From UHGV virus genome UHGV-1558314: DNA of 64,000 nucleotides; one strand, given 5' to 3'. The translations under genes were made by a program, and so were the position numbers. The stretch comes from a virus. Shown here in pieces: positions 1 to 3,861 of this stretch; within the stretch, counting starts at the first letter, position 1, and every line of letters starts with the position of its first letter. The notes beneath the pieces were generated by a model, which ran no database searches, was not told where the DNA came from, and was given only the letters and a program-made list of their open reading frames with translations.

Positions 1-47
1 TTGCAGAAATTCCGATTTTGCAATATCATCTGAAATGACTACTTTTA

Positions 48-1031
48 ATGTCAATTTATACAAACCTTAAAAACGCAGTTATGATTAAAAAGATGATTTG
101 CATTGCGGTATGTACTTGGATGTGTGCATGCTGTGAGAAAAATGACGGGGGAGGGGTATTCGATGAGCCGGTAGAACCTCCTGTTGAAAAGCCGACTACT
201 CCGCCGTCAACCGAAGATTTAAGAACAATCAATATTAACGATGAGATTATGGCAGTAGTTGGTACAAAAACTTGGAGAAGCATTGCATATGGTAATGGCA
301 TATATGTAGTAGTTGGTTTAGACGGTTATACTGCATATTCTACGGATGGAGAAAATTGGACAAGAAAAACTGTTGGAACAGAGTCTTGGTATGCTATTGC
401 GTTCGGTAATGGCAAATTCGTTGCCGTAGGTAAATCGAGAAAGATTACAACCACTACCGATGGTAAAACATGGACTACAGTTAAACAAGTAGGAACAAGC
501 GCAGTTGGGAACTGGCTGGCTATTACGTATGCTGATGGCAAATTTATCACATCCAGTTCTAAAGGGTATGGCGCAATATCCATCGATGGTGTGAATTGGA
601 CAAATATGCGAATAGCTTCAGATTATACTTGGTCTTTATCTACTATTGCATATGGAAATGGTAGATTCATTGCGTCTGGTATGTCTAATACTTATAAATC
701 TACAGATGGTGAAACATGGGTAAAGTGTGCTAATCATGTGGCGTGTAATGCCATGACATATGGGGCTGGCAAATTTGTTTCAGTCCATATTGAGAGCGGA
801 GCTTATTCAACCGATAACGGTGAAACATGGACTGACGTGCCAATTACCGGTGGCTCTTATAATTGGCTCGGAATAACATATGCCAACGGTTTATTTGTGG
901 CTGGTGGCCAAGATGGTTACATAACTACTTCCATAGATGGAGTTACATGGAGTCAGCCAGTACAAGTAATACCGAAAGGAACGGGGACTACTAATGACAA
1001 TGCGATATATGACATTGTAAAGATGAATTAG
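48..1031 (+). CDS. BNR/Asp-box repeat lipoprotein (predicted beta-propeller)
   Basis: N-terminal hydrophobic stretch with Cys cluster (CTWMCACC) suggests a lipoprotein signal; six Asp-box-like repeats S/T-x-D-G-x-x-W-T (STDGENWT, TTDGKTWT, SIDGVNWT, STDGETWV, TDNGETWT, SIDGVTWS). One of very few plus-strand genes. Confidence 0.6.
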   Translation: MSIYTNLKNAVMIKKMICIAVCTWMCACCEKNDGGGVFDEPVEPPVEKPTTPPSTEDLRTININDEIMAVVGTKTWRSIAYGNGIYVVVGLDGYTAYSTDGENWTRKTVGTESWYAIAFGNGKFVAVGKSRKITTTTDGKTWTTVKQVGTSAVGNWLAITYADGKFITSSSKGYGAISIDGVNWTNMRIASDYTWSLSTIAYGNGRFIASGMSNTYKSTDGETWVKCANHVACNAMTYGAGKFVSVHIESGAYSTDNGETWTDVPITGGSYNWLGITYANGLFVAGGQDGYITTSIDGVTWSQPVQVIPKGTGTTNDNAIYDIVKMN

Positions 1032-1110
1032 GGGAATGTTGTAACAAGTACATTATATGCTATTATAGCAGCCCAATAATTTCCAAAAATATAAAAACGA
1101 AATAATATGA

Positions 1111-1140
1111 AAAGCAGCATGAATTTCATGCTGCTTTTAT
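1111..1140. terminator. bidirectional rho-independent terminator hairpin
   Basis: Perfect inverted repeat aaagcagcatga / tcatgctgcttt flanked by A-run and T-run, between convergent genes. Confidence 0.55.
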
Positions 1141-1187
1141 TGTATAAATACTTAAAATTCTTATATTTGCATATGAGACATCCTATT

Positions 1188-1802
1188 CTAAGTTTGGTAC
1201 ATTAAAGTATATAGATGTCTGCCAAATTTGTTGCCATATCGTTTCTGTTTAGTTTCAAGTGCTTTGTCAATATTTATGATGCCTCTTGTACCATGTTCTT
1301 TTTCACGTTTAGCTAAAATTGTTTGCATGTCGCCAAGTTTGTTGCCATATCGTTGCAATTTAGTTTCATGCATTTTTGCAATATTTGTCCAACTATCACC
1401 ATAATGTTGTCTATGTGTTGCAGCGCAACGTGCTTTGTCACCAAACATGTGTCCAAACTTTGCTAAACGACGCTCAACAAATTTTTGCATGTCACCCATG
1501 CCATTACCATATCGTTTCTGCTTAGTTGCAACAGCCTTTTGCATATTGACACCTCGATAGCCATAACGCATTTCTATTGTTGTAGTAATTTTATCACTGA
1601 TGACTTTTGATTGCTGAGCATACTCAAAACCATATTTACGCAAGCAGCCAATTCGCTTATTATATTTCAAACGAATTTTACCATGAGATGTTTGCTTTGG
1701 GGCATACCATTCATATGGCGTTTCTGCAATCAATTTATCGCGTTCAGCTTCAAGTTCTTTTATTCGAGCTTCAAGAGCATCGCCAGTTAGTCGTTCAGCC
1801 AT
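1188..1802 (-). CDS. paralog family member A (tandem basic repeat protein, lacks the C-terminal domain)
   Basis: N-terminus MAERLTGDALEARIKELEAERDKL is near-identical to the ORF at 14031..15398; repeats K-x-x-RYGN-x-x-GDMQ; start taken at internal Met to avoid overlap with terminase. Confidence 0.5.
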   Translation of the reverse strand: MAERLTGDALEARIKELEAERDKLIAETPYEWYAPKQTSHGKIRLKYNKRIGCLRKYGFEYAQQSKVISDKITTTIEMRYGYRGVNMQKAVATKQKRYGNGMGDMQKFVERRLAKFGHMFGDKARCAATHRQHYGDSWTNIAKMHETKLQRYGNKLGDMQTILAKREKEHGTRGIINIDKALETKQKRYGNKFGRHLYTLMYQT

Positions 1803-1869
1803 TGTGTATGAATGTTCAGAATGTAAATTCACTATATGTACATATAACACGAATATTCAAGTTAGATGC

Positions 1870-3861
1870 ATGGCTGAAGTCAAGAATCAAGTGTTTAATC
1901 CAGTAGCACAATTCAAATCTGCTGAAGAAAAAGAAGCTGCGAAAGTTATATGGTGCAGTGAATCAGTCGCAATGGCATATGCTGCAGTTGACCAAGGCTT
2001 GCCACTTAGAGCAAATCCGTGGTTCTTTGGCAATATTGCACTGCGTAAGCCCGGATTGCTATACAGATACACTGACATAGAATTGCGTGAATGGCTTAGA
2101 TGCAAGTATGACATATTATATTTTGCTGACACATGGTGTCAGATTTTAACTCCAGATGGCACAAGAAAGCATTTTAATTTGAGACCATATCAACGCAAAA
2201 TGCTGCGTGCATATCAACGACAAAAGTATACGATAGTTCTTACTGGGCGACAAGTAGGCAAAACGGTCGTTACATCAGTATTTCTTGCTTGGGCTGTCAT
2301 TTTCAATCGTGAGCTCAACATAGCAGTACTTGGCGACCGCTTGGCTACATCAAGCGAAAACCTGAACAAAACAAAAGACATCATAAACAATCTACCATTC
2401 TTTATGAAGCCTGGTGTATTTGTTTGGAATGGGGGAATGGTTGCATTTGACAATGGTTGCAAAATTATCACAGGCACTGCTCAAAAGTCATCACTTGTCG
2501 GTAAAACAATTCACATCTTGTATCTTGATGAGCTCGCAATTCCGCCTGCTCAGCAATCAAAGACTCTTGTAGACTATGCATTACCAACAATTGCATCATT
2601 GCCAACTGGCAAAGTTATTGTAACATCTACGCCATCTGGTGATAATGTGTTCAAGACTTTGTGGCTTGGCGCAATTAACAAAACAAATGGCTTCTTTCCA
2701 ATTCAAGTAAACTGGTGGGACATACCAGGTCGTGATGAAAAATGGAAAGCTGAACAAATTGCAATTCTTGGTGAAGACGCTTTCAATGAGCAATACAACT
2801 GTGTGTTCTTGTCAGGTGCAACATCAATCTTCAATTCAAGAGCAATTGATGATATTGCAAGACGGCAGCAAAAGTACGAATTTGTTGCTGATGAGCATCT
2901 TGAATCGCTGCTCAGATTTTTCATTGCTGATTCAGATGTTGGCACTGAACCTGAGCCGCATTCATTTATGACTTGGCGTGCAGATATTGACCCAGCAACA
3001 CTTAAAAATGAAACATGCATCATCAACATCGACATTGCTGAAGGTTTATCTGGCGACTTTTCTGTCATACATGTGCATCGTATAGTTGACATTGCAAAAG
3101 ACACTGAACTTGAGCTTGATGCAAGCAATCTGTACGATATGTTTGATGACGACAAAAAATCACTATTTGCAAAAGCTGTTGAAATGCAACGTCAAATGTC
3201 AGCAACGCAAACTCAAGATGATGACGATGATGACGATGACGATTGGTTTGGTGCAGACGATGATGTTGCTCAAGGCGTCGATGCATATCAAGATTATGCA
3301 AATGCTGCAGTAGAAGAGATTGGCTTGTGGCGTTCAAATGTGACATCAATCAAAGTCATGGCTCTATATTTGCAGTTCTTAATGACATATGTGTTTGACG
3401 CAAACAAAACAAAGATTATCTATGAACGCAACAAATATGGCGGAGAGTTTCGTTCATATTGTTTGTCTGAACGTGCACGCAATATTGCAATTGATGAAGA
3501 GAGCTTCGTAAGCTTCCAACGAACGCTTGGTTCAGAACAACTTGCACCAGGCTGTTCAATTACACCGGGCACAAAGCCAGTGTATGTAAGACAGCTCAAA
3601 GACCTTGTTGAAACTGGTAAGATTCTTGAAAACAATGCAGACACACAAAGAGAGCTTACATATTTTGGCGGTGTCAAAGGCAAGAATGGGCACGTGTCAT
3701 ATCAGGCGTCGCCTGGCTTCCATGATGACATTGCAATGACTCTTGTATCTCTTGCAGCGTTTATGGACACTCGATGCAATGACTGGCTTGAACTGCTTGA
3801 TGTGTTCTACAATGGAAGCAGCCAAACAAGTTCTGATGATGACGATGACGATTGGATTTGA
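1870..3861 (+). CDS. terminase large subunit
   Basis: Walker A-like VLTGRQVGKT and Walker B-like HILYLDE as in T4 gp17-type terminases; two poly-Asp tracts (DDDDDDDDD internal, DDDDDD near C-terminus). Confidence 0.85.
   Translation: MAEVKNQVFNPVAQFKSAEEKEAAKVIWCSESVAMAYAAVDQGLPLRANPWFFGNIALRKPGLLYRYTDIELREWLRCKYDILYFADTWCQILTPDGTRKHFNLRPYQRKMLRAYQRQKYTIVLTGRQVGKTVVTSVFLAWAVIFNRELNIAVLGDRLATSSENLNKTKDIINNLPFFMKPGVFVWNGGMVAFDNGCKIITGTAQKSSLVGKTIHILYLDELAIPPAQQSKTLVDYALPTIASLPTGKVIVTSTPSGDNVFKTLWLGAINKTNGFFPIQVNWWDIPGRDEKWKAEQIAILGEDAFNEQYNCVFLSGATSIFNSRAIDDIARRQQKYEFVADEHLESLLRFFIADSDVGTEPEPHSFMTWRADIDPATLKNETCIINIDIAEGLSGDFSVIHVHRIVDIAKDTELELDASNLYDMFDDDKKSLFAKAVEMQRQMSATQTQDDDDDDDDDWFGADDDVAQGVDAYQDYANAAVEEIGLWRSNVTSIKVMALYLQFLMTYVFDANKTKIIYERNKYGGEFRSYCLSERARNIAIDEESFVSFQRTLGSEQLAPGCSITPGTKPVYVRQLKDLVETGKILENNADTQRELTYFGGVKGKNGHVSYQASPGFHDDIAMTLVSLAAFMDTRCNDWLELLDVFYNGSSQTSSDDDDDDWI

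What the first reader, a model, noticed from the sequence alone, without database searches (positions are those of the whole stretch)
48..1031. Plus-strand Asp-box (BNR) beta-propeller lipoprotein
Six SxDxGxTW-type repeats behind a lipoprotein-like signal peptide predict a sialidase-like propeller. It is one of only three plus-strand genes in the window and is followed by its own terminator, which is typical of an accessory gene (moron). It could be a glycan-binding or depolymerase-like factor, or a host-surface modifier.
Basis: partly seen in the sequence, partly recalled or inferred. Interest (0 to 1): 0.5.

Follow-up and report, generated by a model that had tools for sequence, protein, structure and literature searches.

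The report
Transposon-borne switchable propeller lipoprotein in phage
The gene is real, but it is the cargo of an Alistipes jumping gene (IS1595 family) that landed in a giant gut phage; it encodes a highly variable beta-propeller lipoprotein, probably surface-exposed, behind a poly-G frame switch that is almost always off in bacteria and is on in both phage copies.

Summary
The ORF at 48..1031 is real; its likely start is ATG 81. It encodes a lipoprotein signal peptide, a Pro-rich tether and six 36-42-residue repeats that model confidently as a probably seven-bladed beta-propeller. Only one of the six repeats is a canonical Asp-box, and nothing supports a sialidase.

The main result is context. 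Window 1..1219 is the right half of a ~2.57-kb IS1595-family element of Alistipes (transposase, 39-aa ORF, this gene, hairpin terminator, ~66-bp inverted repeats). Elsewhere it has perfect 8-bp target duplications at 16 distinct sites. Here it truncates a homing-endonuclease-like phage gene beside terL. A 94%-identical relative has that gene intact and carries another allele of the IS elsewhere.

The same backbone (transposase 96-100% identical) carries at least 9 cargo alleles only 38-52% identical. A poly-G tract four codons after the lipid-anchor Cys puts the signal peptide out of frame in 60 of 61 scorable gut-metagenome copies, although the propeller ORF stays open (dN/dS ~0.4). Both phage copies are in frame, and the window's tract is interrupted (G5AG4).

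The propeller is also found in phage tail-module proteins. Function is inferred, not shown: surface binding, possibly receptor masking.

The parts
1..1219 (+). Right-hand (cargo) half of a ~2.57-kb IS1595-family element. The window and its source contig begin inside the element.
   Evidence: 96.5-99.3% nucleotide identity to IS copies in unrelated bacterial contexts. In every locus the identity stops at window 1219/1220. The ends were defined.
1..80 (+). Conserved upstream region of the cargo gene, with a candidate Bacteroidetes-type promoter (TTTG at 17-20, TACTTTTA at 41-48).
   Evidence: A 60-nt block is invariant in 7 full IS copies. The promoter assignment is inference from the known TTTG/TAnnTTTG consensus and was not tested.
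81..1031 (+). Cargo CDS of 316 aa: signal peptide, lipobox Cys18 (132-134), Pro-rich tether (residues 26-45) and beta-propeller (residues ~46-316).
   Evidence: AlphaFold model with pLDDT 85.2 and pTM 0.82.
147..156 (+). Poly-G frame switch, here interrupted (GGGGGAGGGG, A at 152) and in frame.
   Evidence: Other copies carry G6-G11 with G9 as the mode. No other copy is interrupted. The 64-kb window has no other G or C run longer than 6.
1110..1138 (.). Bidirectional hairpin terminator inside the IS.
   Evidence: 13-bp stem flanked by an A-run and a T-run; -19.8 kcal/mol.
1154..1219 (+). Right terminal inverted repeat (~66 bp, ends ...GTATATAGATGTC). It carries 5 private substitutions (1165, 1175, 1176, 1188, 1190).
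   Evidence: Reverse-complement match to the left ends of other copies. Substitutions were scored against 12 same-allele copies.
1220..1227 (.). Expected 8-bp target site (TGCCAAAT). The left-hand duplicate lies outside the window.
   Evidence: By analogy with 8-bp duplications at 16 distinct other sites. Not verified here.
1188..1802 (-). Phage homing-endonuclease-like gene (DUF7487 repeats), truncated by the IS. Its last 10 codons and its stop come from the IS inverted repeat.
   Evidence: It aligns to residues 1-212 of the 431-aa homologue in the related phage L013. That homologue hits PHROG 3339, homing endonuclease, E 2.5e-7.
1870..3861 (+). Phage large terminase, which marks the flanking DNA as phage.
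   Evidence: Pfam Terminase_6N. 40% identity to Chryseobacterium jumbo phage MA9V-1.

Best explanation
Shown: the ORF is the passenger gene of an IS1595-family transposon native to Alistipes (Rikenellaceae). The element reads left inverted repeat, 306-aa Zn-ribbon/DDE transposase, 39-aa ORF, conserved upstream block, cargo gene, hairpin terminator, right inverted repeat. It makes 8-bp target duplications. One copy sits in this ~175-kb jumbo phage, where it cuts a homing-endonuclease-like gene next to terL.

Shown or modelled: the cargo has a lipoprotein signal peptide. Two acidic residues follow the lipid-anchor Cys, which is the Bacteroidetes rule for surface export. A Pro-rich tether and a compact propeller follow, with six clear repeats plus a closing blade.

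Shown: a poly-G tract four codons after the Cys decides whether the signal peptide and the propeller share a frame. Bacterial copies are almost all out of frame, yet their propeller ORF is kept open and under purifying selection. Both phage-borne copies are in frame, and this one has a G-to-A change that breaks the tract.

Inferred: the tract is a slipped-strand on/off switch (a contingency locus). The propeller is a ligand-binding surface module under diversifying pressure, since at least 9 alleles at ~40% identity ride one backbone and the same propeller type occurs in phage tail-module proteins.

Inferred with low confidence (~0.25): in the phage it is expressed in infected cells and masks or occupies a surface receptor, in the manner of T5 Llp, giving superinfection exclusion or protecting progeny.
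For: IS identity:
- In all 8 loci retrieved with P0002 the cargo lies downstream of an IS1595 transposase or its 3' end.
- The transposase scores NCBIfam NF033547 197 bits (cut-off 75), Pfam DDE_Tnp_IS1595 128 bits and Zn_ribbon_IS1595 54.5 bits.
- It is WP_337436009.1, 'MULTISPECIES: IS1595 family transposase [Alistipes]'.
- A full-length transposase (96-100% identity) is present in nearly every locus with enough upstream DNA.
- Perfect 8-bp duplications occur at 14 distinct sites among the 63 metagenome loci, plus two further sites in L003 and L004-6.

Insertion in the phage:
- Identity to bacterial IS copies ends at window 1219 in every locus.
- Two contigs of 50-200 kb carry the exact protein.
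- The related phage L013 is 94% identical from window 1712 onward, has no IS there and has an intact 431-aa gene.
- The same related phage has another allele of the IS at a different site.

Protein:

Switch:
- G-run lengths among 63 loci are 6 (1), 7 (1), 8 (6), 9 (54) and 11 (1). Of 61 scorable loci, 60 are out of frame (binomial P 6e-10 against one-third in frame).
- The propeller ORF is at least 280 aa in 53 of 63 loci. dN/dS is ~0.37-0.50.
- Phage copies are 2 of 2 in frame, Fisher P 0.0015-0.003.

Diversity: 9 allele clusters at 38-52% identity, with a conserved backbone and a divergent cargo.

Link to phage tails.
Against: - The transposase half and the left junction are not on the available phage contigs. 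Both contigs break inside the IS, and a transposase 41-mer is absent from the IMG/VR relative. Completeness of the IS in the phage and its duplication are therefore inferred.
- There is no exact empty site. Beyond the first ~46 residues the related phage's gene is only ~35% identical.
- 'On in phages' rests on n = 2.
- Frame states come from assemblies, not reads.
- G9 is so strongly modal, in both wrong frames, that programmed slippage rather than heritable switching could explain it.
- The lipobox in this copy is atypical (C-A-C|C), and no dedicated signal-peptide predictor was run.
- No ligand, no enzymatic site and no defence-family match were found (PADLOC nothing).
Confidence: 0.78

Rival explanations
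1. G9 is not an on/off switch. It is a programmed slippage site: RNA polymerase or the ribosome slips on the G9 run and gives constant low-level in-frame product from nominally out-of-frame copies.
For: G9 is the mode in 54 of 63 loci across four different downstream contexts. Those contexts sit in both wrong frames, so the length rather than the frame looks conserved. The propeller ORF is under purifying selection despite the frame break.
Against: Length variants G6, G7, G8, G10 and G11 exist among near-identical copies. A 1-nt difference (G8 against G9 before ATTTGATGAG) is exactly what separates the in-frame phage copy L027 from out-of-frame bacterial copies. The window copy gained an interrupting A that would abolish slippage yet stays in frame.
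Confidence: 0.2
2. This is a classical phage moron encoding a sialidase-like glycan depolymerase or host-surface modifier.
For: The gene is accessory, has a terminator, and contains one true Asp-box. It has distant Ycf48-type (BNR-like) propeller ancestry.
Against: It lies inside a transposon shared at 96-99% identity with bacterial loci. There is no FRIP motif, the Pfam and NCBIfam hits are sub-threshold, and no sialidase appears among the top fold matches. The blades are short, at ~40 residues.
Confidence: 0.04
3. The IS-phage junction is an assembly chimera, and the gene is really bacterial DNA stitched to a phage contig end.
For: The gene lies at the very start of the source contig. The IS is a multi-copy repeat in gut metagenomes.
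Against: Two large contigs share the junction. The phage-linked copy has private changes, namely the interrupted tract and 5 inverted-repeat substitutions, found in none of 12 same-allele bacterial copies. The adjacent phage gene ends exactly at the IS boundary. An independent IMG/VR assembly of a related phage also carries the IS.
Confidence: 0.04
4. The cargo is a decaying pseudogene in most copies, and the frame breaks are ordinary inactivating mutations.
For: 60 of 61 scorable copies are out of frame. 6 of 63 have additional premature stops.
Against: 53 of 63 keep an ORF of at least 280 aa downstream of the tract. dN/dS is ~0.4 at all divergence levels. Alleles that differ by 60% still preserve all the repeat motifs. 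The breaks occur only at the homopolymer.
Confidence: 0.05
5. The protein is a mobile paralogue of BamH (DUF6242) that plugs into the Bacteroidetes BAM surface dome.
For: The best Pfam hit is DUF6242 (E 1e-5). Homologues carry precomputed DUF6242_C hits. BamH is a surface lipoprotein with a C-terminal propeller (bioRxiv 10.1101/2025.01.31.636011).
Against: The score is below the gathering threshold (25.9 against 29 bits). The family profile matches the solved BamH chain 9hjm_H only at E 0.11. The conserved N-terminal Ig-like domain that docks BamH to BamI is absent. The fold matches favour seven blades, whereas BamH has six.
Confidence: 0.04

Closest known systems
IS1595-family insertion sequences carrying passenger genes ('transporter IS'; Siguier, Gagnevin & Chandler 2009, cited from my own knowledge)
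   Same: N-terminal Zn-ribbon plus DDE transposase, terminal inverted repeats, 8-bp target duplication, and an extra non-transposition gene inside the ends.
   Different: The cargo here is one dedicated lipoprotein family found beside IS1595 transposases of very different sequence. It is hypervariable on a single backbone and gated by a poly-G tract. The inverted repeats are long (~66 bp).
Simple-sequence-repeat contingency loci (poly-G tracts of Campylobacter; Neisseria and Haemophilus surface genes)
   Same: A homopolymer early in the coding region of a surface protein, length polymorphism between near-identical copies, and an intact ORF in off states.
   Different: The locus rides on a transposon. 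It is strongly skewed to off (60 of 61). Its host belongs to the Bacteroidales, where phase variation is usually attributed to DNA inversions (my own knowledge; my literature searches found no description).
Ycf48/HCF136 (PSII assembly lipoprotein, seven-bladed propeller)
   Same: It is the best sequence-profile match (E 1.4e-9) and the best Foldseek match (E 2e-13, TM 0.6). It is also a lipoprotein with short blades and degenerate Asp-box turns.
   Different: 16-19% identity, and the Pfam PSII_BNR model is not hit. The organism is non-photosynthetic, so this is remote homology, not orthology.
BtuG, B. thetaiotaomicron surface lipoprotein (seven-bladed propeller that captures vitamin B12)
   Different: 13-14% identity, no btuB neighbour, and no evidence of corrinoid binding.
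BamH (Bt3727, DUF6242)
   Same: A surface lipoprotein with a propeller, and the nearest Pfam family.
   Different: The match is sub-threshold, the Ig-like docking domain is absent, and the blade number probably differs.
Propeller domains of phage fibre, baseplate and tail-module proteins
   Same: 36-40% identity over the propeller to 450-550-aa proteins located in phage tail modules. BFVD matches reach E 3e-19 and include tail fibre, baseplate wedge and chaperone-processed fibre proteins.
   Different: Here the propeller hangs on a lipid anchor and tether instead of a fibre shaft.
Phage-encoded receptor-blocking lipoproteins (T5 Llp; Cor of phi80/N15), cited from my own knowledge
   Same: A phage-carried outer-membrane lipoprotein expressed in the infected cell.
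   Different: No sequence or fold relation, and the function here is only hypothesised.

Membership tests
Sialidase / BNR (Asp-box) propeller | Several canonical S-x-D-x-G-x-T-W Asp-boxes, with Pfam BNR or BNR_2 above threshold | tested here: not met
   1 of 6 repeats is canonical. BNR scores 14 bits against a cut-off of 27, and BNR_2 is not hit.
Sialidase / BNR (Asp-box) propeller | Catalytic FRIP motif with the Arg triad, and a six-bladed sialidase fold | tested here: not met
DUF6242 / BamH | Pfam PF19755 at or above its gathering score | tested here: not met
   25.9 bits against 29. The family profile matches 9hjm_H at E 0.11.
DUF6242 / BamH | Conserved N-terminal Ig-like domain preceding the propeller | tested here: not met
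   The propeller strands start at residue ~47, directly after a disordered tether.
Ycf48-like propeller | Significant sequence and fold similarity over the whole propeller | tested here: inconclusive
   Profile E 1.4e-9 and Foldseek E 2e-13 at TM 0.60. A single-sequence search gives only E 0.14, and PF14870 is not hit.
IS1595 family (the element) | Transposase with an N-terminal Zn ribbon and an ISXO2-like DDE domain | tested here: met
   NF033547 197 bits against 75; PF12762 128 bits; PF12760 54.5 bits.
IS1595 family (the element) | Terminal inverted repeats and 8-bp direct target duplications | tested here: met
   ~66-bp inverted repeats at ~90% identity. Perfect 8-bp duplications at 16 distinct sites. 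Neither the duplication nor the left end could be checked for the phage copy.
Bacteroidetes surface lipoprotein | Signal peptide with a lipobox Cys, and at least 2 acidic residues within 6 residues after the Cys | tested here: met
   The sequence reads MIKKMICIAVCTWMCAC|CEKND. The criterion is the one stated in bioRxiv 10.1101/2025.01.31.636011. The -3 to -1 positions (C-A-C) are atypical, and no predictor was run.
Bacteroidetes surface lipoprotein | Experimental lipidation and surface exposure | not testable with these tools
   Needs fractionation or protease shaving.
Simple-sequence contingency locus | Homopolymer of at least 8 in the 5' coding region, length polymorphism, and both on and off states with an intact ORF | tested here: met
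Simple-sequence contingency locus | Reversible switching within a clonal population | not testable with these tools
   Needs read-level or culture data.
Phage moron | An autonomous transcription unit inserted between conserved phage genes and absent from close relatives | tested here: inconclusive
   It is absent from this site in L013 and has its own terminator. However, the unit is delivered by a transposon and interrupts a gene rather than lying between genes.

The most novel reading that the evidence does not exclude
The propeller lipoproteins are a dedicated, transposon-disseminated, hypervariable and phase-switched surface-shield family in gut Bacteroidales. They use the same receptor-binding propeller as phage tail proteins to occupy or mimic phage receptors. 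Bacteria keep them silent except under attack. Jumbo phages that capture the IS lock the gene on, to exclude rival phages or to protect their progeny.
Probability: 0.15. Interest if true: 0.85.

Novelty: new variant of a known kind. Interest (0 to 1): 0.62.

Why it matters
If the reading holds, it ties together three things that are usually studied apart: transposons with cargo, phase variation and phage-host surface conflict. A single Alistipes IS backbone distributes at least nine very different versions of one surface-protein family, keeps them silent through a homopolymer, and has twice entered one jumbo-phage lineage, where the gene is switched on.

This would be a concrete example of homopolymer-based phase variation in Bacteroidales. 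It also shows an IS moving a host surface gene into a lytic-type jumbo phage, and points to Alistipes as that phage's likely host. The hypothesis is testable, because the propeller shared with phage tail proteins suggests a role in adsorption.

For annotation, most database entries for this family are mis-called ORFs. They start at TTG or at an internal Met in the wrong frame and lack the signal peptide.

Tried and rejected
- DNA search of window 1-1200 against GenBank phages found nothing.
- PHROGs and PADLOC gave nothing for the cargo.
- A genome-contig scan with the family alignment failed for lack of a conserved block.
- I tried to reach the far end of a phage contig to see the transposase and left junction. 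A transposase 41-mer and the inverted-repeat pattern are absent from the rest of the IMG/VR relative. This stays an unverified hint.
- The left flank of L012 does not match the expected duplication, so it is not the phage's left junction.
- Of 80 other viral contigs with IS1595-like transposases, none except the known near-identical one carries a propeller cargo.
- The sialidase, BamH-paralogue, pseudogene and chimera readings were considered and rejected, as set out under the rival explanations.
- Literature searches for IS1595 passengers, DUF6242, homopolymer phase variation in Bacteroidales or Alistipes, and IS in jumbo phages found no description of this element.

Full report
**1. The observation**

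The ORF 48..1031 (+) is present. ATG 48 is in frame only in some copies of the element. The start conserved in all copies is ATG 81 (MIKKMICIAVC...).

The 316-aa product has four parts:
- a positively charged, then hydrophobic, signal peptide ending in C-A-C|C;
- the sequence C-E-K-N-D after the putative lipid-anchor Cys18;
- a Pro-rich tether (residues 26-45);
- six repeats spaced 36-42 residues apart.

Each repeat pairs a Y-G-N-G-x-F-V strand with an S/T-x-D-G-x-x-W turn. Only 9 of 20,000 shuffles of the mature protein gave two or more such turns. Only one turn (STDNGETW) is a canonical Asp-box. Pfam BNR reaches E 0.05, 14 bits against a cut-off of 27.

The hairpin at 1110-1138 is real: a 13-bp stem, -19.8 kcal/mol. 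It is flanked by an A-run and a T-run, and it serves two convergent genes.

**2. What the window is**

The flanking genes are phage genes. They include a large terminase 40% identical to that of Chryseobacterium jumbo phage MA9V-1, together with DHFR, an NAD-type ligase and a 5'-3' exonuclease. The source contig is 175,395 bp, and the gene lies at its very start.

**3. The gene is transposon cargo**

The nearest homologues (94-100% identity) lie in unrelated bacterial settings such as capsule glycosyltransferase loci and a type I restriction-modification locus. In all 8 loci retrieved with P0002 the gene lies just downstream of an IS1595-family transposase (or its 3' end) and a 39-aa ORF.

Window 1..1219 matches these loci at 96.5-99.3% identity, and the match ends at 1219/1220 in every one. 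Window 1154..1219 is the reverse complement of a segment upstream of the transposase, so it is a ~66-bp terminal inverted repeat.

Full copies are 2.54-2.61 kb. Perfect 8-bp target duplications flank 14 distinct AT-rich sites among 63 metagenome loci, plus two further sites in L003 and L004-6.

The transposase passes the NCBIfam IS1595 model (197 bits against 75) and both Pfam domains. It is WP_337436009.1, 'MULTISPECIES: IS1595 family transposase [Alistipes]'. Its cluster has 1,238 members, and this exact sequence was seen on 743 contigs. One full copy lies in Alistipes timonensis JC136.

More distant members of the lipoprotein family (74%, 41% and 34% identity) also sit beside IS1595-type transposases, one of them only 58% identical to this transposase. 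The association is therefore old, not a one-off.

**4. The insertion in the phage**

On the minus strand, a phage ORF (1188..1802) runs into the IS. Its last 10 codons and its stop are encoded by the inverted repeat.

The closest related phage is IMGVR_UViG_3300045988_152288 (174,628 bp), which is 94% identical from window 1712 onward. It has no IS at this site. In its place it has a 431-aa gene that hits the PHROG homing-endonuclease family (E 2.5e-7). The window ORF aligns to residues 1-212 of that gene and stops exactly at the IS boundary.

The same related phage carries a different allele of the IS about 35 kb away, at its contig end. That makes two independent insertions in one phage lineage.

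Both phage contigs break inside the IS, between the transposase and the cargo. This is where the sequence becomes a multi-copy repeat shared with bacterial copies, so I infer that the transposase half is present. I could not see it.

The window copy has private changes found in no other copy: an interrupted G tract and five substitutions clustered in the sub-terminal right inverted repeat. These argue against a chimeric join.

**5. Fold**

The model was built with a 51-sequence alignment and is confident (pLDDT 85.2, pTM 0.82).
- Foldseek against the PDB puts Ycf48 first (E 2e-13, TM 0.6), followed by WD40 propellers.
- A family profile finds Ycf48 at E 1.4e-9 and the solved BamH chain (DUF6242) only at E 0.11.

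The strand count is six four-strand repeats, plus two N-terminal strands and one C-terminal strand. This fits a seventh, closing blade, which is inference. There is no FRIP motif. The only glycosylhydrolase hit scores 26 bits against a cut-off of 175.

DUF6242 is BamH (Bt3727), a surface lipoprotein of the Bacteroidetes BAM complex. It has an Ig-like domain followed by a six-bladed propeller (bioRxiv 10.1101/2025.01.31.636011). The present protein lacks that Ig-like domain and scores below threshold, so I do not file it there.

**6. Hypervariable cargo on one backbone**

In an alignment of full IS copies, the backbone from the left end through the signal peptide is 90-98% identical. The last ~60 bp are 85-92% identical. 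The propeller region drops to 40-57% nucleotide identity between alleles.

Sixty-six full-length cargo proteins fall into 9 clusters that are 38-52% identical to each other (one pair reaches 75%). Their transposases are 96-100% identical.

**7. A poly-G switch**

Four codons after Cys18 lies a G tract. In an unbiased pattern scan of gut metagenomes (63 loci) the run lengths were:

| G-run length | Loci |
|---|---|
| 6 | 1 |
| 7 | 1 |
| 8 | 6 |
| 9 | 54 |
| 11 | 1 |

- In 60 of 61 scorable loci the signal peptide is out of frame with the propeller. Both wrong frames occur. The binomial P is 6e-10 against one-third in frame, and 3e-8 after removing duplicate flanks.
- The propeller ORF stays open for at least 280 aa in 53 of 63 loci. 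Pairwise dN/dS is 0.37-0.50 at all divergence levels. These are therefore not decaying pseudogenes.
- The same flanking sequence occurs with G9 (out of frame, bacterial) and with G8 (in frame, related phage L027).
- A second signal-peptide lineage (CDPNAGGG...) shows the same pattern in database ORF calls.

Both phage-borne copies are in frame. The window's tract reads GGGGGAGGGG, which is unique among all copies (Fisher P 0.0015-0.003 for phage against non-phage, with n = 2 phage copies). The 64-kb window has no other G or C run longer than 6.

I read this as a slipped-strand contingency switch that is held off in bacteria and fixed on in this phage. Programmed slippage on G9 remains a live alternative.

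**8. Link to phage tails**

Homologues of 450-550 aa share 36-40% identity over the propeller.
- P0101 lies 3.6 kb downstream of a minor tail protein (PHROG 6211, E 3e-71).
- P0016 carries a Pfam phage tail tip domain.
- The BFVD structure matches (E down to 3e-19, 23-29% identity) include tail fibre, baseplate wedge and chaperone-processed fibre proteins.
- tblastn against GenBank phages gave weak hits of the same kinds.

The propeller is therefore a module that phages also use in tail proteins, and it presumably binds something on the cell surface.

**9. Mechanism and verdict**

*Shown:* IS1595 cargo, insertion into the phage, truncation of the endonuclease-like gene, the propeller model, allele diversity, and the frame-state distribution.

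*Inferred:* surface export, phase variation and ligand binding.

*Speculative (~0.25):* a receptor-masking or superinfection-exclusion role in the phage, analogous to T5 Llp.

It is neither sialidase-like nor a conventional moron. It is a new variant of known kinds (an IS with a passenger gene, and a homopolymer contingency locus) in an unusual combination and host.

Noticed in passing
window 1165, 1175, 1176, 1188, 1190: Five substitutions private to the phage copy cluster within 26 nt of the sub-terminal right inverted repeat, while the ~950-nt coding region is identical to the consensus. Two of them (1188, 1190) create the TAG that ends the truncated phage ORF. They might immobilise the IS.
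   Followed up: partly
L027 10379-11716 (IMGVR_UViG_3300045988_152288, contig end): The 94%-identical related phage carries a different cargo allele (48% identity, G8, in frame) of the same IS at another site. This indicates repeated capture of the IS by this phage lineage.
   Followed up: partly
L001 8558-10954; L175-L177; L174: Distant relatives of the lipoprotein (34-74% identity), some with no poly-G tract and an ordinary in-frame signal peptide, also sit beside IS1595-type transposases. In L175-L177 a 582-aa AAA_15/SMC_N ATPase follows the cargo and may be further cargo.
   Followed up: partly
P0019, P0027, P0032, P0034, P0036, P0051 and others: A second signal-peptide lineage (MRKQILCMMLCACVYASCDPNAGGGVFDEP) has its own G tract. 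Most database entries for it are wrong-frame ORF calls (MRLCMCIMR.KCWGGVF...), so public annotation of this family is systematically off.
   Followed up: partly
L092-L171: IS1595-like transposases (40-62% identical) occur in 236 stretches of IMG/VR viral contigs, including many contigs of ~90 kb and ~150 kb. None of the 80 fetched, apart from the known copy, has a propeller cargo.
   Followed up: partly
window 1188-1850 (-); direct repeat 1215-1275 / 1327-1386: The truncated phage gene is built of R-Y-G-N-x-F-G repeats (weak Pfam DUF7487). Its intact relative in L013 has an extra N-terminal repeat block and a C-terminal nuclease-like domain. It looks like a fast-evolving homing-endonuclease gene beside terL.
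   Followed up: partly
window 1870-3861 (+): The large terminase contains two poly-Asp runs (DDDDDDDD in the middle and DDDDDD near the C-terminus), which is unusual for TerL.
   Followed up: no
L012 1321-1440 (39-aa ORF; the window starts just after it): A 39-aa ORF between the transposase and the cargo is 90-97% conserved in all IS copies. Its function is unknown, and both phage contigs break in or next to it.
   Followed up: no
L025 (IMGVR_UViG_3300029580_000250): This 'viral' contig, which carries an IS end, looks like a Bacteroidales mobilisable element (a relaxase-like 485-aa protein, a resolvase and a C39-ABC exporter) rather than a phage.
   Followed up: no
P0126: One transposase variant is recorded on a 174,593-bp contig, the size of these phage genomes. 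It may be an assembly in which the whole IS lies inside the phage. It could not be fetched.
   Followed up: no
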